A stretch of 8,948 nucleotides of DNA from Candidatus Odinarchaeota archaeon. GTDB taxonomy: Archaea; Asgardarchaeota; Odinarchaeia; Odinarchaeales; Odinarchaeaceae. Below, piece by piece: positions 1-8,948 of this stretch. Every line of letters begins with the position of its first letter. The stretch's first letter is position 1. The stretch lies in assembly GCA_038826135.1 (NCBI GenBank), contig JAWBON010000048.1:1-8948 (forward strand), in the 5' to 3' direction. A model generated the notes under the pieces. It was given only the letters and a program-made list of their open reading frames with translations, was not told the origin of the DNA and searched no databases. The position numbers were made by a program, and so were the translations under genes.

Positions 1-420
1 ATGAACTAGGAACGGGGAGTGGTCTATGCCAGGCCCGTGTTCATATACGGCGAAGTCTGCTCCAAACTTAAGCCCTGGTCTTACCACGTATCCTCTTCTC
101 CTGAGGTCTAAGTAAACTACGAGTTTATCTGTAAAATTATCATATAATGTAGAGGCTATATGTTTAAAATCCTCTAAACTTATAGGCGAATTATTCTCGC
201 CGAATAAATCTATCTTCTTTTCCTGAAGTAGATATGCTGTTTCAAGCACGGATAGTTCAAGCGGGCGGTCGAACTCCGGTACCTTAGGTTTCCTTATACC
301 CACCGGTTTTCCGAAGAAACCATTTTTATAAAGATAGGAACCCGCCTTAGGATCCCATATTATTACTCTATTGGTGAGGAGTTGAGCTTTTATTGGTAAT
401 TCTACTTTATCCTCTTCCAT
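1..420 (-). CDS. endA: tRNA-splicing endonuclease (tRNA-intron lyase), catalytic alpha subunit; partial, runs off the window start
   Basis: Manual translation of the reverse complement from ATG 420-418 is open for 140 codons: MEEDKVELPIKAQLLTNRVIIWDPKAGSYLYKNGFFGKPVGIRKPKVPEFDRPLELSVLETAYLLQEKKIDLF...VVYLDLRRRGYVVRPGLKFGADFAVYEHGPGIDHSPFLVH. It has the EndA signatures L.LS..E..YL, Y.DLR.RGY.V..G.KFG.DF..Y and catalytic Tyr126/His134. The catalytic Lys lies beyond the window. A purine-rich AGGGA precedes the ATG. Absent from the ORF track because the stop is outside the window. Confidence 0.96.
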   Translation of the reverse strand, partial: MEEDKVELPIKAQLLTNRVIIWDPKAGSYLYKNGFFGKPVGIRKPKVPEFDRPLELSVLETAYLLQEKKIDLFGENNSPISLEDFKHIASTLYDNFTDKLVVYLDLRRRGYVVRPGLKFGADFAVYEHGPGIDHSPFLVH

Positions 421-435
421 ATTGTTCCCTGATTT

Positions 436-1113
436 TCATTGTCTAATAGACATAGTTAGTATTCTAACCATGTCAGCTGAGGATTTAATTTGATCCGAGG
501 TTTCCTCAAGCTGCTCTATAATATTTGAAATCTTATACATCTTCTTATAATCATTTATCACTTCTAATATATCCTTCATTAAAGCCCTGTGAATAGTATC
601 TGTCTGCTCTTCAGTTTCATCCACCTGTTTCGATAATTGAGCTGCTTTGTCAATATTTTGTTCGAGCGCTATTATGCACTCTCTTAATTTATCCATCGTC
701 TCAACAACAGTTTCCATCATCTTCTTAAAGTCGCGCATAATGCTGGCTGGTAAATCCATGTTACCCGCGATGCTTATCTTATAGGCTACAGCTTCAACAT
801 TGTCAGCGATCATATCGGTCTCTATCACAAGCCGCATAAGATCTTCTCTACATATCAATGTGGTAGCGTTAGATAATTCGTCTAGAAGGCTCCATTTTAT
901 AGTGTTCGCCTCTTTCTCAAACTTTGAGATTTTACTGTGGTGTTCGCGAACTTGGTTTACATCGCCAACTATCCAGTCATCTAATAGAAGGCTCAGCTCT
1001 TTAATAGCTGACGAGATAACTCGCGCGTGATCCTGGGATATATAGAGCGCTTTTCGCTCGACACTTCTAGCTGTTTCATTATTATTAATCATCGCCATGT
1101 TCTTGGTCCCCAA
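436..1113 (-). CDS. DUF47 family protein (PhoU-like putative phosphate transport regulator)
   Basis: 225-aa all-helical ORF with the DUF47 pattern: I...E.EA..IK..L...L, REDL.RL....D.IAD..E..A, then a second repeat V...E...D..HR.L...I and E.LE..SD.....AD. The track start is TTG 1113; ATG 1098 is an alternative. The stop TGA (438-436) is 15 nt before the endA ATG. Confidence 0.88.
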   Translation of the reverse strand: MGTKNMAMINNNETARSVERKALYISQDHARVISSAIKELSLLLDDWIVGDVNQVREHHSKISKFEKEANTIKWSLLDELSNATTLICREDLMRLVIETDMIADNVEAVAYKISIAGNMDLPASIMRDFKKMMETVVETMDKLRECIIALEQNIDKAAQLSKQVDETEEQTDTIHRALMKDILEVINDYKKMYKISNIIEQLEETSDQIKSSADMVRILTMSIRQ

Positions 1114-1160: not shown

Positions 1161-1244
1161 AGTGACTGTTTTACCCTCTTGAAAAACTTTACTGTTTCAA
1201 AGACAAAGCTTCTCACAACAAAGTTAAATTAAAACTTAAATATT

Positions 1245-1252
1245 TTTATATA
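1245..1252 (+). promoter_or_regulatory. Probable TATA box for the uppP-dedA fusion gene
   Basis: TTTATATA at 1245-1252 follows an A-rich tract. It ends 27 nt before ATG 1280, which fits a leaderless or near-leaderless archaeal transcript. Confidence 0.5.
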
Positions 1253-1270
1253 TTTCTATAGAATAAAAAG

Positions 1271-2743
1271 TTGAATTATATGTGGTTTCTACTAATATTA
1301 GCGTTAGTTCAAGGGTTAATAGAGTGGTTACCTATCTCATCTCAGGGCCAGTTAATTTTATTACTACAAGCTGCTGGGGGATTAGACGCCTCTACCCTGC
1401 TTTCCATATCCATATGGCTGCATCTAGGCACATTAATAGCTGTTCTAGTATACTATCGCAGGGACTATATTAGTATTCTAAAACCATCCGGGAACGATGA
1501 TAAGTTAACGAGAATGTTTATGGTAACCGCTACAGTGGCTACCGGAGTTGTGGCGGTTCCTATCTATCTCTTTTTAAAAAACTCCTTCCCGTTTATTGTA
1601 GGGGATTTTTTAACATTGATCACGGGTATTCTTCTAATATTAACCGGTGTTATTATTCACTTAACTAAGCGTAAAATAGGTGTGAAAGAGATAGGCTCGC
1701 TATCAATAGTAGACGCGCTTATAGTCGGTCTTGTGCAAGGTTTTGCAATACTGCCGGGTATAAGCAGATCCGGTGTAACGATCGCCGCGCTTCTATGGTT
1801 AGGGTATAAGAATCAGAACGCTTTGAAACTTAGTTTTTTAATAAGTGCTCCTGCTGTGATAGGCGCCGTATCAATTGACGCTGTAAGCTACCCCGCCGTC
1901 ATCGCAGATATACCTGTATATATTTTAATATTAGCGTTGATTATAACCGCTATTATAGGTTTTTTAACAATTAAATACTTCACAAAACTCTCGCAGAAAA
2001 TCAACTTCTCCTATTTTTGTATATTTCTAGGCCTTATAATAACTCTAATACTAGGTCCTTTAATACTGTTAGGCGACTCTCTTAGCCTTATATCCTCTAT
2101 CAGCGATGGGTTTATCTGGATTTACAATGCCTTGAGAGATATTGTTTTAATTATAGGACCAGCTGGTCTATTTCTAGTAATGATTGTTCAAGCTGTTTTA
2201 GCCCCAATACCATCAGAGGGTATATTAATCTTAGCAGGTGGCGCTTTCACAATTTCATACGGTTTCCCCACTGGTATATTAATCGCTGTGTTATCAAGCG
2301 GCTTCGGTGGAATTTCAGGGGCTATTTTAAGTTACTTCATATCTAAAGTCGGTGGCAGACCTATAGTTAAAAAACTTTTAAGCGAAAAAACCCTCGCATC
2401 CGCTGATAACTGGTTTAAAAAATACGGAGGATGGGCTGTACTCGTAGGGCGGCTTATCCCGTTTATACCATTCGACGCCATATCTTATGGGGCTGGTCTG
2501 ACAAAAATGAAAACATCATCGTTTATACTAGCCACTGTAATAGGGATCTTCCCACGATCTTTCCTGTACACTTATATCGGATATCTTATTGAGAATTCAC
2601 TGTCAACAGGAAACCTTGAACCTTTCTATATAATTATTATGAGCGTTATAGCTTTAGCAATCCTGCTAGTTTTTCTCTATAAGCACTACTTTATTGATAA
2701 ACGAAGCAGGTCTAATATAGACGCTTCAGTTAACATTTTTTAG
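1271..2743 (+). CDS. uppP: Fusion membrane protein: N-terminal BacA/UppP polyprenyl-diphosphate phosphatase plus C-terminal DedA/VTT (SNARE_assoc; TVP38/TMEM41-like) domain
   Basis: One uninterrupted 490-codon ORF; the likely start is ATG 1280. Residues ~4-260 carry the BacA motifs QGLIEWLPISS.G, HLGTL.A, Q..A.LPGISRSG.T and SFL.S.P. Residues ~293-440 carry the DedA motifs PIPSE..L..GG, G....Y..S..GGRP, WF.KYG..AV..GRLIP..PFD.ISY.AG.T.M and F..AT.IG..P. Confidence 0.92.
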   Translation: MNYMWFLLILALVQGLIEWLPISSQGQLILLLQAAGGLDASTLLSISIWLHLGTLIAVLVYYRRDYISILKPSGNDDKLTRMFMVTATVATGVVAVPIYLFLKNSFPFIVGDFLTLITGILLILTGVIIHLTKRKIGVKEIGSLSIVDALIVGLVQGFAILPGISRSGVTIAALLWLGYKNQNALKLSFLISAPAVIGAVSIDAVSYPAVIADIPVYILILALIITAIIGFLTIKYFTKLSQKINFSYFCIFLGLIITLILGPLILLGDSLSLISSISDGFIWIYNALRDIVLIIGPAGLFLVMIVQAVLAPIPSEGILILAGGAFTISYGFPTGILIAVLSSGFGGISGAILSYFISKVGGRPIVKKLLSEKTLASADNWFKKYGGWAVLVGRLIPFIPFDAISYGAGLTKMKTSSFILATVIGIFPRSFLYTYIGYLIENSLSTGNLEPFYIIIMSVIALAILLVFLYKHYFIDKRSRSNIDASVNIF

Positions 2744-3731
2744 GAGGTAGACCCGACCTGCTTGCCTCACATGCGAAAGGCTCTAAATTATACCAGCTAA
2801 CCTCGTACCGGCTCGGGAAAGAGTTTGATCTAATGAAAAAAGCGTGCGGCGTCTCTCTGTCTTTACTTGCAGACAGGCACTCTAAGCAAACTCTCTTTAA
2901 CTCCTCCCTATCAGTTGAATTTGAGATTAACTGTTCAAAAGAGTATGTTTTATCATACCATTCAAAAACTAATTTATCCCCTCTCTCAGTTACACTCCGT
3001 ATAAGATTCCAAGGCCAAAAAGTACTCATCTGATGTAGAATACTTGGATTATCTTCACTGAAAAACTGGGCGATACCTTCTTTGAATATGTGAATTTTAG
3101 GAGGAGCGCTCTCCTCTTTTCTAGGAATATACCGCTCATACTTGTCACGGACCGGTCGCATAAAACTACTACCCTTAATCCAGTCAAGTAAGTTAACCTG
3201 ATATTCATAGATTTTCTCGCACACGTTCATAATATATTTAACAGCTGCTAAATTACCGTAGTGCGTTACTCCACTTAACTGCGGCCTACCAGTCTTCTTA
3301 AATAGAATTTCCCCAACTTTTTTAACATCATCTAAAGGTATGAAAACATCAATAGCATACCACTCTGTTTCATCCGTTGTAAATCCGAATAAGAATACTT
3401 CCCCTAGATTATAAGCCCCCCTTTCACCTATATTTAAAGGATATGATGATCTATCTGTTTTAACGCTGACAGGTAAAACTTCATAAGCTTTAATTTTATC
3501 ATAGCAAATTAGAAGCTTATGGTAAACCGTTTCTCTAAACCGCTTCTTCTCAGGTATGCTCACTTCAGCTATATTACTTCCTAATAATATTTTTCTAGGA
3601 GGCTTGAAAAACATCTCACGACAGTTATATAATATTTCACCAGGCTCCGTCTCCTCCTCTGAATCGAAAATGGAGAACACTTCCTCAAGCTCGTTATCTT
3701 CAAAAATCTTTTCCCCTTCATCTTCACCCAT
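2730..3731 (-). CDS. Hypothetical soluble protein, 333 aa; acidic N-terminus and possibly two PH-like domains
   Basis: Long ORF from ATG 3731 to TAA 2732-2730 with globular composition, filling the space between neighbouring genes. Its 3' end overlaps the convergent fusion gene by 14 nt. No family recognised with certainty. Confidence 0.8.
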   Translation of the reverse strand: MGEDEGEKIFEDNELEEVFSIFDSEEETEPGEILYNCREMFFKPPRKILLGSNIAEVSIPEKKRFRETVYHKLLICYDKIKAYEVLPVSVKTDRSSYPLNIGERGAYNLGEVFLFGFTTDETEWYAIDVFIPLDDVKKVGEILFKKTGRPQLSGVTHYGNLAAVKYIMNVCEKIYEYQVNLLDWIKGSSFMRPVRDKYERYIPRKEESAPPKIHIFKEGIAQFFSEDNPSILHQMSTFWPWNLIRSVTERGDKLVFEWYDKTYSFEQLISNSTDREELKRVCLECLSASKDRETPHAFFIRSNSFPSRYEVSWYNLEPFACEASRSGLPPKKC

Positions 3732-3819: not shown

Positions 3820-4944
3820 ATGATAGAGTTTTCTGAAAAAAACTTTGTTCAAGAGATTCTTAAGGCTTTTCACAAATTTTTAAGAGAGTATTTTAAAGGC
3901 GTGAATATAATCTTTAAGATTAGTAAGCTTCCGCTTAAAACCTACATGTTAACCTTTGATAATGTAAGAATAGATATAAAAATGAAAAGAGTGAAGGCTG
4001 CTGAAGACAGCTTATACTGGATTACGCTGAGCGCTCCTAAACACTATCAGATAAATATAAACGATTCTGTATTTGAACCCGATAAATTTTCTGAAATAGT
4101 TAGAATAGGCTATGAGAACGGGCTTAGAACAGGTAACCTGTTAAAAATAATAAAATACTTCGCGGAAACATGTGTTTTAACGATTATAATGAGGTTGATG
4201 TCAAATTACGGACTAGCTGAAGAAAACTATAACGTTAAAATCTCGAAATTAATATATCGATTAGAAGACTCGCCTTTTATGAGAGACAGGATTAAGAGAC
4301 TGGTTGATTTTTTAAAAACCATAGGCCACCCCTCATTCAAAGATTTAACTGATATAGAGAGCGTTAGGTTAGGTCTCATTCAAGGGCTGACATTGAAAAA
4401 CTTTAATGTTGAAGTTATAGGAGATATTGACAGTTTAAAAAGGATACTTAAACAATGGTTTGGTATTCTACAGGAGAGTGAGACAGCTGAGCTAAGTGAA
4501 CAATCATACTATATGATCTATGATTTTAGAAGCCTAATATTAGAGAATGAACTTATAAAAGCTGTAAGCAGAGTTGTTGGTAGAATAACACCGGAAACAG
4601 AAATTAAGAGGATCCTTCTTCAACCATCACTTATAGGACTCTATAAAATGTTTCTTAAAAAAGACCCGCCTCTTAAAAACTCATATACTAAGATATCAAC
4701 CCAGTTAAACGAGTTTCAACTTAAAAAACTGTTAAAAGAACTCAGATATATGAAAATCCAGGAGAGAAAATATAACAGGTTAATAATGATAAAAGATTTA
4801 ACCGCCGGTTTAACGGATGATGAGGAAATAAACCATTATATTAACCAGCTTCACAACTTTAATAGATTAAAATACGATGAAATAGTGAATAAGACAGTAG
4901 AGTACGCTTTAACAAAGAATATTATTCGTAATATAATTCTTTAA
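3820..4944 (+). CDS. Hypothetical protein, 374 aa, Lys/Ile/Leu-rich, predicted mostly helical
   Basis: 1125-nt ORF with ATG, an upstream GGTGA and a TAA stop. It is divergent from the 333-aa gene across an 88-nt AT-rich spacer. No recognisable motif. Confidence 0.8.
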   Translation: MIEFSEKNFVQEILKAFHKFLREYFKGVNIIFKISKLPLKTYMLTFDNVRIDIKMKRVKAAEDSLYWITLSAPKHYQININDSVFEPDKFSEIVRIGYENGLRTGNLLKIIKYFAETCVLTIIMRLMSNYGLAEENYNVKISKLIYRLEDSPFMRDRIKRLVDFLKTIGHPSFKDLTDIESVRLGLIQGLTLKNFNVEVIGDIDSLKRILKQWFGILQESETAELSEQSYYMIYDFRSLILENELIKAVSRVVGRITPETEIKRILLQPSLIGLYKMFLKKDPPLKNSYTKISTQLNEFQLKKLLKELRYMKIQERKYNRLIMIKDLTAGLTDDEEINHYINQLHNFNRLKYDEIVNKTVEYALTKNIIRNIIL

Positions 4945-5050: not shown

Positions 5051-6616
5051 GTGAATCAGATGAGTGAAGACAGTGATATAAGATTTAATATGAATGCTAA
5101 GATAATCTTTAATAAAGAATTAACCGGCGCAAGGGAACTTATCAACAAACTCATAGATGAAGCTAATAAAACCGTTCTTTTAAAAGGATTACCGCGTGAT
5201 AAGTTTGAAGAAGGAGCTAAAATCTTAGACTGGTCTGTAAAAGGAGACACTCTCAGTCTGAGAATCGTCTCTGGCAGGTATCTGAGAGCTCACAGCGCAT
5301 TGCTTAGAATATACAAGACGGTGGCTAAAGAGCTGGGGAGTCGGCTTAAAATCGGCGCTAGAAGTATAATAGTTGACGAGTACACGGCAACCATGAATAT
5401 AGACTCTAGTTTAGAGTTTACAATACCTAAAATCCCGACCGTTGAGACTATAGAACGTGAAAATAACACTCTTAAAATATATTTCTCAAACCTTGACGAA
5501 GCCGCCCTTAGAGGCTCTGAAATAGACCGAGCGGTTAAACTTATTCAATCACTAAGCTTACCATCTTTAACTGAACGCGTTACTAAAATAACCCCGGGAA
5601 CAATAATAAGAAAATCTAAACCACGTGAGCACAGATTTAACGAGGATCCTACGATTAAAGCGCTTGAATTAGGATGGTTGGAGGAGTTTCCCGGTAAAGG
5701 GCAGTTCTTCTACACACCACCTATTACAAAATTATATGAGGCTATTAAAAACGTATTCGTAAAAGAGGTGGGTGAGAAACTAGGCTTCCAAGAATGCTTA
5801 TTCCCTAAACTAATACCGTTAGAAGTAATGGATAAAATGAGATATCTGGAAGGCATATGTGAAGGTATGTTCTACTGTTCAGCGCCTGAGCGGGACCCCG
5901 CTTTCTTCGATGATTTTAAAGCTGAACTATATGTGACGAGGAGAATACCTTATAAAAAGCTGAGGGACGCTCTTAAAGACCCTTACTACGCCTTATCCGC
6001 AGCTCAATGCGAACCATTCTACAACTATTTGGGGAGCAAAACTTTGAAGATTAAAAGCTTACCTATAAAATACATGGATCACTCAGGTTACACTTTCCGT
6101 TACGAGGCTGGTGGAGCGAGAGGACTTGAACGAGCATTCGAATTTCAAAGACTTGAATTAGTATGGGCTGCGCTCCCGGAGGAGACGGAGAAAATCAGAG
6201 ACGCCACCTTGCTTGAAACAGAACGCGTAGCTGATGATATTTTAGAGTTAGAATGGTGGACCGAGGTTGGTGACGACCCGTTCTATCTAGTAGGCCGCTT
6301 CTCAGAGGAGCAGGAGGTAAATCTACCTGACGTGCCTAAATACGAGCTTAGAGCAGCTTTACCGTACAAGGGAATGTTTGATAAAAAGAATAGCATCGCA
6401 ACGTCATCATTCAACGTGCACGGTCAACACTATGTTAAGAATTTTTCAACAAAAACAGATAAAGGCGTGGATGTGTGGACAGGCTGCACTGGTATAGGAT
6501 TAACTAGATGGCTTGTAGCATTCCTAGCCCAACACGGTTTTAACAGAGATGAATGGCCTAAAAAAATAATTGAATTAACCGAACCTTTCCCTCAGGTACC
6601 TGATATAAAAGCTTAA
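5051..6616 (+). CDS. serS: Seryl-tRNA synthetase, methanogen-type (type 2, Zn-dependent)
   Basis: It has the atypical alpha/beta N-terminal tRNA-binding domain (F.....I.F...L, ANKTVLLKG, SGRYLRAH.A.LR) and ECLFPKLIP. The Zn-ligand motifs are AQCEPF (Cys), EFQRLE (Glu) and GCTG.G..RW (Cys). Motif 2 reads FRYEAGGARGLER..EF.R.E, and GDDPFY is present. Start is GTG 5051 or ATG 5060. Confidence 0.96.
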   Translation: MNQMSEDSDIRFNMNAKIIFNKELTGARELINKLIDEANKTVLLKGLPRDKFEEGAKILDWSVKGDTLSLRIVSGRYLRAHSALLRIYKTVAKELGSRLKIGARSIIVDEYTATMNIDSSLEFTIPKIPTVETIERENNTLKIYFSNLDEAALRGSEIDRAVKLIQSLSLPSLTERVTKITPGTIIRKSKPREHRFNEDPTIKALELGWLEEFPGKGQFFYTPPITKLYEAIKNVFVKEVGEKLGFQECLFPKLIPLEVMDKMRYLEGICEGMFYCSAPERDPAFFDDFKAELYVTRRIPYKKLRDALKDPYYALSAAQCEPFYNYLGSKTLKIKSLPIKYMDHSGYTFRYEAGGARGLERAFEFQRLELVWAALPEETEKIRDATLLETERVADDILELEWWTEVGDDPFYLVGRFSEEQEVNLPDVPKYELRAALPYKGMFDKKNSIATSSFNVHGQHYVKNFSTKTDKGVDVWTGCTGIGLTRWLVAFLAQHGFNRDEWPKKIIELTEPFPQVPDIKA

Positions 6617-6633: not shown

Positions 6634-6671
6634 TCTTCCTATTCTTAAAACATATCGATGTGCATTCAATT

Positions 6672-8948
6672 ATGGAAAAAGAATGGTACTCTATGAAAGA
6701 GGAGGAGCTCTATAAGGAGCTTAAAACCTCTCCCACCGGTCTTTCAAAAGAAGAGGCTAAAAAGAGATTATTAGAATACGGAACCAACGAGTTACAGAGA
6801 CTGAAGCGTAAATCTAAAATAAAATTGTTTATAGAGCAATTCAAAAACGTTCTGATAATAATTCTGCTTGTAGCAGCGTTAATATCAGTAATACTTGGAG
6901 AAATACTAGACGCGGCTGTTATAGGAGTAATCGTGGTTTTAAACGCGGTAATCGGGTTTATTCAAGAATATAAAGCGGAGAAAGCTATAGAAGCATTAAA
7001 AGAGATGGCTGCTCCTCAAACAATAGTTATAAGAGACGGTAAAGAGACCCCGATACCAGCTAAAGAGCTTGTTCCCGGGGATATAATACTTATAGATACA
7101 GGCGACCGGCTTCCAGCCGACGTCAGACTTATAGAAGCCTCAGGTTTGAAAATTGATGAGTCGAGTTTAACAGGCGAGTCAACACCGGTTAAGAAGAATA
7201 TCGAGCCGATTAAAAACGGTTTAGTTACATTAGCTGAGAGAGCTAATATGGGTTTCAGCGGAACCGTGGTAACATCCGGCTATGGTAAAGGGATTGTAAC
7301 AGCTACAGGTATGAGTACCGAAATAGGTCAGATAGCGACCATGATACAGGAAGAAGAGGATAAGGAAACTCCTCTACAGAGAAAATTAGACACGCTGGGT
7401 AAAAAAATAGGTCAAATAGTAATTGTTTTATGTGTGATAGTTTTCATAGCTGGCTTTCTGAGAGGTATACCTTTCATCGAGATTTTTCTAGCATCCGTGG
7501 GTTTAGCTGTAGCGGCTATACCTGAAGGCTTACCTGCGATAGTTACAATGGGCTTAGCACTCGGTATCCAGAGGATGGCTAAAAGAAACGCTATAATAAG
7601 GAAGCTACCCGCGGTTGAAACCCTAGGAAGTGCAAACGCTATATGCTCTGATAAAACAGGAACACTTACCAAAAACGAGATGACTGTTAGAAGAATTCAC
7701 TTAGCATCCACATCATTTGAAATTACAGGGCAGGGGTACGCTCCTAGAGGCGAATTCCTTAATAAAGGTGAGAAAATAGATCCGCTGTCCCACGAGGATT
7801 TAAAACTTTTAATCACGATTGGAGCGTTATGCAATAATTCAACACTTTCATTCGACGCCCAGAAAAACCGCTGGTTTATCACAGGCGACCCGACCTCAGG
7901 TGCACTAATAGTACTCGCCGAGAAAGCTGGTTTAAGGCAATCTGAACTTGTTAAACAATACAAACGGATTGCGGAGATACCATTCGACTCAGAGCGTAAA
8001 AGAATTGTAACCTTGCATGAAAACCCTGGTGAAGGGCGAATTCTATTTGTAAGCGGCGCCCCTGACGTTTTATTAGAATTATCTGGTTATTACTTGGATA
8101 ACGGTCAAGTTAAAAAACTCGATGAAGATAAGAAGAGGATGTTTCTGAAATTAAATGACGAAATGGCTGCCGCAGCCTTAAGAGTTATAGCTTTAGCTTA
8201 TAAGAAAATGGATGCCGAGAAAGTTATAGTTGAAGACCCGAATGTTGACAGGGGCCTCGTCTTTGCAGGTTTAGTCGGGATGATGGATCCGCCTAGAGCT
8301 GAGGTTAAGGATGCTATAAAATTAGCTTCAAAAGCAGGTATTAAGACTATTATGATAACCGGCGACCATCAGAACACAGCCGCTGCAATAGCTAGGGAGC
8401 TTGGAATACTAGGTGAAGGCGACATTGTCCTTACAGGCAAGCAGCTTGACGAAATGTCTATTGATGAACTTGAGAAAATAGTTGATAAAGTAAAAGTTTA
8501 TGCGCGTGTGTCCCCGAAGCATAAAATGCAAATAGTGAAAGCGTTGAAAAGGAGAGGCAGTATACTTGCAATGACAGGGGACGGTGTTAACGATGCTCCT
8601 GCTCTAAAATCCTCGGATATAGGGGTTTCTATGGGTATTGCCGGAACAGATGTGGCTAAAGAAGCCTCTGATATGGTTCTGGCTGATGATAATTTCTCAA
8701 CTATAGTCGCTGCTGTTGAAGAAGGAAGAATGGTTTACGATAATATTAAGAAGGTGGTTAAGTACCTTATTTCAACCAACTTCGGGGAAATTTTAACCAT
8801 CTTCGTAGGTATCATTATAGGCTTACCGCTACCGATATTAGCGCTTCAAATACTTTGGATTAATCTCGTAACCGATGGGTTGCCTGCATTAGCCCTAGGG
8901 GTGGAACCTGCTGAGGGTGATCTTATGATGCGGAAGCCACGTGATCCA
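6672..8948 (+). CDS. P-type ATPase, type IIA (SERCA-like Ca2+-translocating); partial, runs off the window end
   Basis: Manual translation from ATG 6672 is open for 759 codons to the window end: MEKEWYSM...[19 protein letters not shown]. It contains TGES (7170-7181), M4 [10 protein letters not shown], the phosphorylation motif DKTGT (Asp327, 7650-7652), [27 protein letters not shown]5 YLISTNFGE and M6 [14 protein letters not shown]. Absent from the ORF track because the stop is outside the window. Confidence 0.97.

What the first reader, a model, noticed from the sequence alone, without database searches (positions are those of the whole stretch)
1271..2743. Single-chain UppP/BacA-DedA fusion: candidate 'dephosphorylate and flip' lipid-carrier recycler in an archaeon
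Seen: one ORF joins a complete BacA/UppP domain (aa ~4-260) to a complete DedA/VTT domain (aa ~293-440) through a hydrophobic/amphipathic linker, with no stop or frameshift. Known: BacA converts polyprenyl-PP to polyprenyl-P. The bacterial DedA protein UptA returns undecaprenyl-P across the membrane, and the eukaryotic DedA-superfamily proteins TMEM41B and VMP1 are scramblases. Archaea use dolichol-P/PP for N-glycosylation, and the route by which the carrier returns to the cytoplasmic face is poorly defined in archaea and at the eukaryotic ER. DedA fusions to PAP2-type phosphatases are described in bacteria; I do not recall a characterised BacA-DedA fusion in archaea. Inference: this is a Rosetta-stone protein channelling Dol-PP to Dol-P and then flipping it, and it points to DedA/TMEM41-type proteins as Dol-P recyclers.
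Basis: partly seen in the sequence, partly recalled or inferred. Interest (0 to 1): 0.82.

Follow-up and report, generated by a model that had tools for sequence, protein, structure and literature searches.

The report
Odin-archaeal UppP phosphatase fused to DedA
An Odinarchaeum-related Asgard archaeon makes its only BacA/UppP lipid-carrier pyrophosphatase as one chain with a YdjZ/TVP38-type DedA lipid-transporter domain; the fusion is real, conserved and confined to one order, and it marks this DedA type as a candidate for returning dolichyl phosphate across the membrane.

Summary
Window 1280-2743(+) is one intact 487-aa gene: BacA/UppP (Pfam E 3e-50) followed by a VTT/DedA domain (E 1e-26). 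All 7 genomes of the Odinarchaeum order carry the same fusion, including 1- and 6-contig assemblies, so it is not a chimera. Every other match listed from the 400 Asgard genomes searched is a separate BacA.

In a sister family the orthologous locus (same endA-DUF47 synteny) has separate adjacent bacA and dedA genes. The fusion therefore most likely arose from an operon.

With the helices of an AF2 model (pLDDT 88), charge counts (21 K/R inside, 1 outside) put the BacA C-terminus, the linker and DedA re-entrant loop 1 outside. No extra transmembrane helix is needed.

The DedA domain is not UptA-type. It is YdjZ/TVP38-TMEM64-type, a subfamily argued in print not to flip undecaprenyl-P. Its nearest free-standing relatives (DPANN) sit in DedA-PAP2-PIG-L-GT28 operons, and one Asgard genome has bacA-PAP2-dedA.

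My best reading (0.5) is an outward Dol-PP phosphatase coupled to Dol-P return. No biochemistry supports it. It is a new variant of known phosphatase-translocase fusions (DedA-PAP2, DUF368-BacA). The scan noted this fusion before on other DNA.

The parts
1280..2743 (+). bacA::dedA fusion gene, 487 aa plus stop. The longest ORF starts at TTG 1271; ATG 1280 is the likely start.
1280..2071 (+). BacA/UppP domain, aa 1-264: ten helices, namely re-entrant pair h1/h2, H3-H5, re-entrant pair h6/h7 and H8-H10. N- and C-termini are outside.
   Evidence: Pfam PF02673, 171.6 bits. phmmer to E. coli BacA structures 5OON/6CB2, E 4e-18. AF2 model with TM-by-hit 0.70-0.88 to most listed AFDB UppP entries. Charge count.
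1310..1351 (+). BacA motif 1, QGLIEWLPISSQGQ. Q11 = E. coli E17, E15 = E21, S20/S21 = S26/S27, Q24 = H30.
   Evidence: Invariant in 13 fusions. Residue mapping from the HMMER alignment to 5OON. Translation check.
1421..1423 (+). H48, invariant in the fusions and nearly invariant in archaeal BacA. It aligns with E. coli Q53 and may compensate for the H30-to-Q change (not checked in 3D).
1754..1780 (+). BacA motif 2, PGISRSGVT. R163 = E. coli R174.
2072..2149 (+). Linker, aa 265-290: amphipathic helix with 1 K/R and 3 D/E, inferred to lie on the outer face. It takes the place of the bacA stop codon and intergenic spacer of the split form.
2150..2689 (+). DedA/VTT domain of YdjZ/TVP38-TMEM64 type, aa 291-470: re-entrant loop 1, TM, cytoplasmic amphipathic segment, re-entrant loop 2, then two TM helices.
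   Evidence: Pfam PF09335, 93.9 bits. BLASTP against E. coli paralogues. AF2 models. Foldseek hits across the DedA superfamily.
2204..2218 (+). Tip of DedA re-entrant loop 1, PIPSE. E313 is invariant and aligns with YqjA D51.
2450..2476 (+). Tip of DedA re-entrant loop 2, RLIPFIPFD. R391 = YqjA R130, P397 takes the place of YqjA R136, D399 is invariant.
2690..2740 (+). Basic C-terminal tail (3 K/R), inferred cytoplasmic.
436..1113 (-). PhoU_div/DUF47 gene, divergent neighbour. It serves as a synteny marker shared with the split bacA-dedA locus of the sister family.
1..420 (-). tRNA-splicing endonuclease (endA) fragment, cut by the contig end. Second synteny marker.

Best explanation
The gene encodes a bifunctional membrane protein that recycles the polyprenyl (dolichyl) glycan carrier.

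Shown: (a) it is one intact chain of BacA/UppP plus a DedA domain; (b) the fusion is kept across a whole Asgard order, and the orthologous locus elsewhere carries two adjacent genes; (c) Glu, Ser-Ser and Arg residues aligning with the E. coli BacA catalytic residues are invariant, as are the DedA re-entrant-loop residues E313, R391 and D399.

Inferred from the model plus the positive-inside rule: the BacA pocket opens to the outer leaflet, the BacA C-terminus and the linker are outside, DedA re-entrant loop 1 enters from outside and loop 2 from the cytoplasm.

Inferred mechanism: after the oligosaccharyltransferase AglB transfers the glycan, Dol-PP is left in the outer leaflet. The BacA domain hydrolyses it to Dol-P. 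Dol-P leaves laterally into the membrane, and the tethered DedA domain carries its phosphate head group back to the cytoplasmic leaflet. E313 (equivalent to YqjA D51) and R391 (equivalent to YqjA R130) would be the charge-handling residues. There the GT4 phosphosugar transferase starts a new round.
For: Domain calls and intact frame.

Conservation: a full-length fusion in 6 of the 7 genomes of the order, with the seventh cut by a contig end at aa 205. Every other match listed from the 400-genome Asgard search (150 of 631 rows) is a separate ~270-285 aa BacA. There are 13 full-length clusters among 5.8 billion.

Synteny: endA-DUF47-[fusion] in the Odin order against endA-DUF47-[bacA][dedA] in family f28.

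Independent association of the same DedA clade with a non-homologous lipid phosphatase: DPANN relatives at 45-50% identity lie in DedA-PAP2-PIG-L(-GT28) operons, or in DedA-PIG-L-GT28. One Asgard genome has bacA-PAP2-dedA on one strand.

Residues: E15, S20/S21 and R163 are invariant. The E. coli mechanism uses E21, S27 and R174 (PMC5852022).

Topology: 21 K/R in the predicted inside loops against 1 in the outside loops, using the helices of a model with pLDDT 88.4. E. coli BacA is N-out/C-out with a periplasm-facing pocket.

Genome content: one STT3/AglB, one GT4 (AglH/Alg7-type, which makes PP-linked carriers), no DUF368/PopT, and this is the only BacA.

Published logic: the same reasoning was applied to DedA-PAP2 and DUF368-BacA fusions.
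Against: No biochemical or genetic data exist for any archaeal BacA or for this DedA clade.

The DedA domain is YdjZ/COG0398-type, not the UptA/COG0586 type with demonstrated UndP transport. It lacks the equivalents of YqjA E39 and R136, having Q304 and P397. A published analysis argues that COG0398 proteins are unlikely UndP flippases and more likely phospholipid scramblases (PMC10127716).

The BacA domain has Gln where E. coli has H30, and Leu where E. coli has the pyrophosphate-binding R261. All archaeal homologues share the Gln.

Bacterial NCBIfam UppP equivalog cut-offs are not reached.

The genome also has one PAP2 gene and a second DedA-superfamily gene, so the fusion is not the only candidate for either step.

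Three of the eight nearest free-standing DedA relatives I looked at have no lipid-carrier neighbours.

The carrier chemistry of Odinarchaeia (Dol-P or Dol-PP) has not been measured.
Confidence: 0.5

Rival explanations
1. The DedA domain is a general phospholipid scramblase or membrane-homeostasis factor, as proposed for TMEM41B/VMP1 and bacterial COG0398 proteins. It is fused to BacA only for co-expression or co-localisation, with no product hand-off.
For: By sequence the domain is YdjZ/TVP38-TMEM64-type. It lacks two of the four charged residues used to argue for UndP transport. The published view is that COG0398 members are scramblases. Some free-standing relatives have no lipid-carrier neighbours.
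Against: This does not explain why the same DedA clade repeatedly sits beside or fused to two unrelated polyprenyl-PP/lipid phosphatase families, together with PIG-L and GT28 genes. It also does not explain why the fusion is kept at 44-71% identity across an order. Unlike E. coli YdjZ and YdjX, the archaeal clade keeps an acidic residue at the YqjA D51 position.
Confidence: 0.2
2. The DedA domain feeds the phosphatase rather than clearing it. It moves newly made polyprenyl-PP from the cytoplasmic leaflet, where cis-prenyltransferase produces it, to the outer leaflet where the BacA pocket opens. Alternatively it equilibrates both PP and P forms as a carrier-lipid scramblase.
For: The BacA pocket faces outward, while de novo C55-PP is made on the cytoplasmic side and its phosphatase there is unidentified (PMC5852022). 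The fusion, the topology and the operon data fit transport in either direction equally well.
Against: No DedA protein has been shown to move a pyrophosphate-linked carrier. UptA evidence concerns UndP. The data here cannot separate this reading from the best explanation.
Confidence: 0.15
3. The BacA domain is not a carrier-lipid pyrophosphatase in archaea. It is either inactive or acts on another phosphorylated lipid, so the pair serves archaeal membrane-lipid metabolism rather than glycan-carrier recycling.
For: E. coli H30, R261 and E17 are replaced by Q24, L250 and Q11. Bacterial equivalog cut-offs are not met. No archaeal BacA has been characterised, and the Swiss-Prot names are assigned by similarity.
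Against: The nucleophile Ser, the general-base Glu and the Arg of the SRS motif are invariant. The fold matches UppP. Q at the E17 position lies within the known (E/Q)xxxE motif (from my own knowledge). The operon partners PAP2, PIG-L and GT28 point to lipid-linked sugar chemistry.
Confidence: 0.1
4. Assembly chimera, or a read-through of two genes created by a sequencing error at the junction.
For: The window is a short (8.9 kb) MAG contig, and raw reads could not be inspected.
Against: The same continuous frame is found in independent assemblies, including a 1-contig and a 6-contig genome, and in a second family at 44-49% identity. Both flanks are syntenic.
Confidence: 0.02

Closest known systems
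DedA-PAP2 fusion proteins and dedA-uppP gene adjacency in bacteria (Roney & Rudner, bioRxiv 10.1101/2022.02.03.479048; Sit et al., Nature 2022, PMC9876793; Todor et al., mBio 2023, PMC10127716)
   Same: A carrier-lipid pyrophosphatase is joined to, or encoded beside, a DedA-superfamily transporter. These cases are read as two successive steps of carrier recycling.
   Different: Here the phosphatase is BacA/UppP, not PAP2, and the link is a fusion, not synteny. The host is an Asgard archaeon. The DedA part is COG0398/YdjZ-type, whereas Todor et al. report PAP2 fusions for COG0586. The DedA architecture sheet of Sit et al. lists only PAP2 combinations.
DUF368(PopT)-BacA dual-domain proteins (Sit et al. 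2022, Supplementary Table 3)
   Same: BacA is fused to a candidate polyprenyl-P translocase.
   Different: The translocase family is different (DUF368, not DedA), and the domain order is the opposite one. This genome has no DUF368 gene.
E. coli BacA/UppP (PDB 5OON, 6CB2)
   Same: Fold, both signature motifs and the N-out/C-out topology. E21, S26/S27 and R174 are conserved as E15, S20/S21 and R163.
   Different: About 25-30% identity. E17 is Q, H30 is Q and R261 is L, with a clade-specific His at the Q53 position. A DedA domain is attached at the C-terminus.
E. coli YdjZ and the TVP38/TMEM64/TMEM41 branch of the DedA superfamily
   Same: YdjZ is the best E. coli match (35% identity over 203 aa, 104 bits). 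The R-x-x-P-x-x-P-F-D loop-2 motif is shared. JGI names the closest relatives YdjX (TVP38/TMEM64 family).
   Different: The archaeal clade keeps an acidic residue (E313) where YqjA has D51; YdjZ has F and YdjX has S there. It lacks the N-terminal TM helix of YdjZ, and BacA supplies the membrane anchor instead.
B. subtilis / S. aureus UptA (UndP transporter A)
   Same: Same superfamily fold. Foldseek gives TM 0.62/0.68 and 27% identity to B. subtilis UptA. One of the two conserved Arg residues is present.
   Different: It fails the NCBIfam UptA cut-offs (72 against 250 bits, 51 against 300). The second Arg and the first acidic residue are absent.

Membership tests
BacA/UppP (PF02673) | Profile match above the curated cut-off over the whole domain | tested here: met
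   171.6 bits against a cut-off of 33.4, profile positions 2-255 of 257.
BacA/UppP (PF02673) | Motif 1 (E/Q)xxxE...SS and motif 2 PGxSRSxxT, carrying the Glu base, the Ser nucleophile and the Arg | tested here: met
   Q11, E15, S20, S21 and P159-T167 are invariant in 13 fusions and in 14 archaeal homologues. Mapped to E. coli E17, E21, S26, S27 and R174.
BacA/UppP (PF02673) | E. coli H30 and R261 equivalents | tested here: not met
   Q24 and L250. The Gln is shared by free-standing archaeal BacA, so it is a clade trait and not a decay of this copy.
BacA/UppP (PF02673) | Ten-helix interdigitated inverted repeat with two re-entrant pairs; N- and C-termini outside | tested here: met
   The AF2 helices match h1/h2, H3-5, h6/h7 and H8-10. 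TM-by-hit is 0.70-0.88 to most listed AFDB UppP models. The K/R count supports the orientation. The orientation is inferred, not measured.
BacA/UppP bacterial equivalogs (NCBIfam TIGR00753, NF0013xx) | Score above the equivalog cut-off | tested here: not met
   The best scores are 157.9 against 354 and 123.6 against 217.5.
BacA/UppP | Polyprenyl-diphosphate phosphatase activity | not testable with these tools
   Needs an enzyme assay or complementation.
DedA superfamily (PF09335 VTT_dom) | Profile match above the cut-off; two Pro-tipped re-entrant loops, each followed by a TM helix | tested here: met
   93.9 bits against 33.9. The loops have tips PIPSE and PFIPFD in models of pLDDT 88-90. Foldseek probability is 1.00 to many DedA proteins.
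UptA / COG0586 UndP transporters | NCBIfam UptA equivalog cut-off | tested here: not met
   72.4 against 250 and 50.8 against 300 bits.
UptA / COG0586 UndP transporters | Four membrane-embedded charged residues (YqjA E39, D51, R130, R136) | tested here: not met
   The fusion has Q, E, R and P at these columns, so two of the four are kept.
YdjZ / TVP38-TMEM64 (COG0398) branch | Closest to YdjZ among the E. coli paralogues tested; loop-2 motif RxxPxxPFD | tested here: met
   104 bits to YdjZ, against 41 (DedA), 36 (YdjX) and 32 (YqjA). Motif shown. No formal phylogeny with eukaryotic members was made.
Phosphatase-translocase Rosetta-stone fusions | One continuous frame conserved in several genomes, with a split form in relatives | tested here: met
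Phosphatase-translocase Rosetta-stone fusions | Physical contact or substrate hand-off between the two domains | tested here: inconclusive
   I could not obtain inter-domain geometry from the model, because no coordinates or PAE were returned. See Tried and rejected for the complex prediction.

The most novel reading that the evidence does not exclude
The YdjZ/TVP38-TMEM64-type branch of the DedA superfamily contains eukaryotic TMEM41B, TMEM64 and Tvp38, and has been argued not to handle polyprenyl phosphates. On this reading, in archaea that branch is the dolichyl-phosphate return translocator working directly after Dol-PP phosphatase. One of its eukaryotic descendants would then be the long-sought ER Dol-P flippase, inherited from the Asgard ancestor.
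Probability: 0.15. Interest if true: 0.85.

Novelty: new variant of a known kind. Interest (0 to 1): 0.58.

Why it matters
How dolichyl phosphate returns to the cytoplasmic face is unresolved in archaea and at the eukaryotic ER. Roney & Rudner speculated that PopT does this job in archaea and a DedA protein does it in eukaryotes. This genome lacks PopT, and it ties a DedA domain covalently to its only BacA.

The DedA domain is of the branch that includes the eukaryotic members, not the UptA branch. Together with the DedA-PAP2-PIG-L-GT28 operons of DPANN archaea, this gives comparative-genomic grounds to test COG0398/TVP38-type proteins on polyprenyl phosphates. That runs against the published expectation that they are only phospholipid scramblases.

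The protein is also a compact candidate (487 aa, from a genus first found in hot springs) for structural work on a phosphatase-translocase pair.

Tried and rejected
1. Complex prediction on the two halves as separate chains (collected) returned 'no answer' (score 0.00, with poor pLDDT of 65-68 for the chains). It says nothing either way.

3. Foldseek against Swiss-Prot models with the DedA-domain model does not separate subfamilies. UptA, YkoX, YdjZ, YtxB and TMEM41B all match with TM 0.5-0.66, so I relied on sequence for typing.

4. The protein-atlas search only returned generic archaeal VTT clusters.

5. Window neighbours 2730-3731(-) and 3820-4944(+) were examined for a pathway link. They have no Pfam family even at E <= 1, and nothing in them suggests a lipid-carrier role.

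6. I looked for other fusions of this DedA clade among proteins of 267-853 aa. Only the Odin-order family and one 412-aa VTT-only protein turned up. In the 1.84-billion representative library the only other BacA fusion in the top 150 is BacA-Band_7. Bacterial BacA-DedA fusions with weak similarity to this query could have been missed; an unchecked scan note (e1-5316133) hints that one exists.

7. BacA-domain tree: the fused sequences fall into two well-supported groups in an unresolved polytomy. A single origin is compatible with the tree but not demonstrated by it.

8. I considered that Q24 (E. coli H30) marks a dead enzyme. I rejected this as a reading specific to the fusion, because all free-standing archaeal BacA proteins share it.
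Full report
**What is in the window**

The window is a whole 8,948-bp contig (C48) of a 1.26-Mb, 105-contig, 93%-complete genome. The frame 1271-2743(+) is open throughout.

Pfam places BacA at aa 8-254 (3.2e-50, 171.6 bits) and VTT_dom (DedA) at aa 313-439 (1.3e-26, 93.9 bits). The real start is most likely ATG 1280, giving 487 aa that begin MWFLL. Homologues start there, and the database copy (P0002) has 487 aa.

The neighbours are:
- a tRNA-splicing endonuclease fragment (1-420, -);
- a PhoU_div/DUF47 gene (436-1113, -);
- two orphan genes (2730-3731, -; 3820-4944, +);
- a methanogen-type seryl-tRNA synthetase (5051-6616, +);
- a type-IIA P-type Ca-ATPase (6660-8948, +).

None of these neighbours is a glycosylation gene.

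**Whose genome, and how widespread is the fusion**

The best match (71% identity) is a protein of Candidatus Odinarchaeum yellowstonii. Among 5.8 billion protein clusters, only 13 full-length BacA+VTT proteins were found. All come from Odinarchaeia or from MAGs labelled Promethearchaeota or Hodarchaeota.

I searched 400 genomes of the phylum with the whole protein.
- The full-length match (query 1-476 or longer) is found only in the window's genus (G301 and G303, in 6 and 1 contigs; G302 is cut by a contig end at aa 205) and in the second family of the same order (G298-G300, 46-49% identity). That is 7 of 7 genomes of the order, counting the cut one.
- Every other match listed (150 of 631 rows) is a free-standing BacA of about 270-285 aa.

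In a library of 1.84 billion representatives read exhaustively by HMMER, the only fused representative is the Odinarchaeum protein, plus two fragments that span the junction. The only other BacA fusion in the top 150 is a BacA-Band_7 protein. A search restricted to the DedA part but to proteins of 267-853 aa found no other fused form.

The fusion is therefore real, old enough to have diverged to 44% identity, and lineage-restricted.

**Origin of the fusion**

In the Odin genus and its sister family the gene order is endA - DUF47 - (divergent) fusion - (convergent) orphan-333. In another Asgard family (f28, G304-G308) the same endA - DUF47 pair lies divergently upstream of a free-standing bacA. 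A separate dedA follows on the same strand after about 0.1-0.5 kb. In G306 the contig ends before the dedA position.

This is the orthologous locus in split form. The fusion most likely arose by loss of the bacA stop codon, with the spacer becoming the 26-residue linker (aa 265-290). A fission in f28 is not excluded. The BacA tree is compatible with one origin of the fused forms but does not resolve it.

**Is each half likely to work?**

*BacA.* The two signature motifs are invariant in all 13 fusions: QGxxEWxPxSSxGQ and PGxSRSGxT. Mapping on the E. coli structure sequences (5OON, 6CB2; E 4e-18) gives E15 = E21, S20/S21 = S26/S27 and R163 = R174. In the crystal-structure paper these are the general base, the nucleophile region and the phosphate-binding Arg (PMC5852022).

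Three differences stand out: Q11 for E17, Q24 for H30 and L250 for R261. They are not decay of this copy. Free-standing archaeal BacA proteins, haloarchaeal ones included, have the same Q11 and Q/N24. They also have a nearly invariant His (H48) where E. coli has Q53. Whether H48 reaches the active site could not be checked, because no coordinates were available.

The AF2 model (134-row alignment, pLDDT 88.4, pTM 0.72) superposes on AFDB UppP models, archaeal ones first, with TM-by-hit 0.70-0.88 for most rows.

*DedA.* The invariant residues include PIPSE (E313) at the tip of re-entrant loop 1, GRLxPxIPFD (R391, D399) at loop 2, and FPR (R426).

**Which kind of DedA?**

The NCBIfam UptA models match far below their cut-offs (72 against 250; 51 against 300).

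Against E. coli paralogues taken from the annotated K-12 record, BLASTP gives:

| E. coli paralogue | Bits | Identity |
|---|---|---|
| YdjZ | 104 | 35% over 203 aa |
| DedA | 41 | 24% |
| YdjX | 36 | 23% |
| YqjA | 32 | 24% |

The nearest free-standing proteins (40-53% identity) come from Nanoarchaeota/DPANN and MCG archaea. JGI calls them 'YdjX (TVP38/TMEM64 family)'.

At the four charged positions essential in YqjA (E39, D51, R130, R136) the fusion and its archaeal relatives read Q, E, R, P. E. coli YdjZ reads Q, F, R, P.

The domain therefore belongs to the COG0398/TVP38-TMEM64 branch, with one acidic and one basic residue retained. Okawa et al. place YdjX/YdjZ with eukaryotic TMEM41A/B, TMEM64 and Tvp38. 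[quoted passage not shown] Structure comparison does not discriminate: UptA, YkoX, YdjZ and TMEM41B all match.

**Topology**

I used the helices of the model and counted charges. Loops assigned to the cytoplasm hold 21 K/R in 93 residues. Loops assigned to the outside hold 1 K/R in 59 residues.

This gives BacA N-out/C-out, as proposed for E. coli BacA from the crystal structure. From there the chain runs as follows:
- linker helix, outside;
- DedA re-entrant loop 1, entering from outside;
- one TM helix, running inward;
- a basic amphipathic cytoplasmic segment;
- re-entrant loop 2, entering from the cytoplasm;
- two TM helices;
- a basic C-terminus, inside.

No extra TM helix is needed to join the domains. 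BacA takes the place of the N-terminal anchor helix seen in YdjZ. The outward-opening BacA pocket and the DedA domain are thus compatible with sequential action in one membrane. This is inferred, not measured.

**Independent genomic association**

I looked at the gene neighbourhoods of eight of the nearest free-standing relatives of the fused DedA domain.
- P0159 (47-50% identity) and P0278 lie in MscS - AsnC - DedA - PAP2 - PIG-L, and the P0278 contig continues into a GT28-type glycosyltransferase. P0271 lies in DedA - PAP2. P0279 lies in DedA - PIG-L - GT28.
- P0195 sits beside a Polysacc_synt_3 flippase-like gene.
- P0137, P0206 and P0270 show no such link.

In the Asgard genome G128 the order is bacA - PAP2 - dedA on one strand, and that DedA is 41% identical to the fused domain.

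So this DedA clade is found fused to, or adjacent to, two unrelated lipid-pyrophosphatase families in different archaeal lineages. This is the strongest argument that its substrate belongs to the carrier-lipid cycle.

**Genome context**

The genome has one STT3/AglB, one GT4 phosphosugar transferase (AglH/Alg7-type, the enzyme class that creates PP-linked carriers), one PAP2, no DUF368/PopT, this single BacA, and one further DedA-superfamily gene. Literature places Dol-PP carriers in TACK archaea and eukaryotes, and reports an Odinarchaeota Alg14-like enzyme branching with eukaryotes (PMC8993221; PMC11407970). The carrier of Odinarchaeia itself is unmeasured.

**Mechanism and its status**

My best reading (0.5) has three steps. 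Dol-PP released outside by AglB is hydrolysed by the BacA domain. Dol-P leaves laterally into the membrane. The tethered DedA domain returns it to the cytoplasmic leaflet.
- Shown: the architecture, its conservation, its split ancestor or relative, the residue conservation, and the operon associations.
- Inferred: the orientation, the substrates, the direction of transport and any hand-off.

The rivals are a generic scramblase fused for convenience (0.2), a transporter that delivers Dol-PP outward to the phosphatase or scrambles both forms (0.15), a BacA domain with another substrate or no activity (0.1), and an artefact (0.02).

**Comparison with the literature and novelty**

The following are published: DedA-PAP2 fusions (about 1.3% of dedA genes), dedA-uppP synteny in Streptomyces and Paenibacillus, and DUF368-PAP2, PAP2-DUF368 and DUF368-BacA fusions. 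They are used there as evidence for UndP translocases. The DedA sheet of Sit et al. lists only PAP2 combinations, and Todor et al. mention no BacA fusion. I found no paper describing a BacA-DedA fusion or linking COG0398-type DedA proteins to polyprenyl phosphates.

The finding is thus a new variant of a known kind of Rosetta-stone fusion. Its added interest is the Asgard host and the eukaryote-related DedA branch.

Earlier notes of this scan recorded the same fusion on other Odin-related DNA. One follow-up there reached the same reading. I reached mine before seeing it.

Noticed in passing
window 2730-3731 (-): Orphan 333-aa soluble protein with an acidic N-terminus and no Pfam hit even at E <= 1. 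It is convergent with the fusion gene and overlaps it by 14 nt. It is conserved at the same position across the order (67-70% identity in the genus, 36-39% in the sister family).
   Followed up: partly
window 3820-4944 (+): Orphan 374-aa protein with no Pfam family. It is conserved in the genus (63-66% over the part held) and only faintly in the sister family.
   Followed up: partly
window 5051-6616 (+): Methanogen-type seryl-tRNA synthetase (TIGR00415 serS_MJ, 586 bits against a cut-off of 490; tRNA_bind_4 N-domain) in an Asgard genome.
   Followed up: no
window 6660-8948 (+), runs off the contig: Type-IIA P-type ATPase, closest to the PMR1/SERCA-type Ca2+ pump models (737 and 676 bits, just under the equivalog cut-offs).
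   Followed up: no
G000:C51, locus L002 1303-2061 (-) and 2298-3224 (+): The genome's second DedA-superfamily gene (252 aa, VTT 51.7 bits). It is not recognised by the fusion-family DedA profile. It lies divergently beside an ORF whose sequence (NDxxDxxxD motif) looks like a UbiA-type prenyltransferase; that ORF was read by eye and not scanned against Pfam.
   Followed up: no
loci L045 (4001-5241), L047 (1202-4932), L046 (3247-6343); also P0159 contigs (no DNA held): Conserved DPANN/Nanoarchaeota operon: MscS-like channel - AsnC regulator - YdjZ-type DedA - PAP2 - PIG-L deacetylase - GT28-type (MurG/Alg13-like) glycosyltransferase. It looks like a compact lipid-linked GlcNAc module.
   Followed up: partly
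locus L023 1247-3966 (-), genome G128: Three-gene cluster bacA (294 aa) - PAP2 (242 aa) - dedA (279 aa, YdjZ-type) on one strand in another Asgard family. Two different lipid pyrophosphatases sit next to one DedA.
   Followed up: partly
protein P0164 (562 aa, unknown organism): BacA fused to a Band_7/SPFH domain (160 and 130 bits). This is another BacA fusion architecture not mentioned in the papers I read.
   Followed up: no
window 1349-1351, 1421-1423, 2027-2029 (aa Q24, H48, L250): Archaeal BacA proteins as a group replace E. coli H30 by Gln/Asn and carry a nearly invariant His where E. coli has Q53. In the fusion E. coli R261 aligns with Leu. This may be a relocated catalytic or phosphate-binding residue; it was not checked in 3D.
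   Followed up: partly
window 1240-1262: AT-rich TTTTTATATATTT box about 25-35 nt upstream of ATG 1280, in the 166-nt divergent intergenic region. It fits an archaeal TATA box with a very short leader.
   Followed up: no
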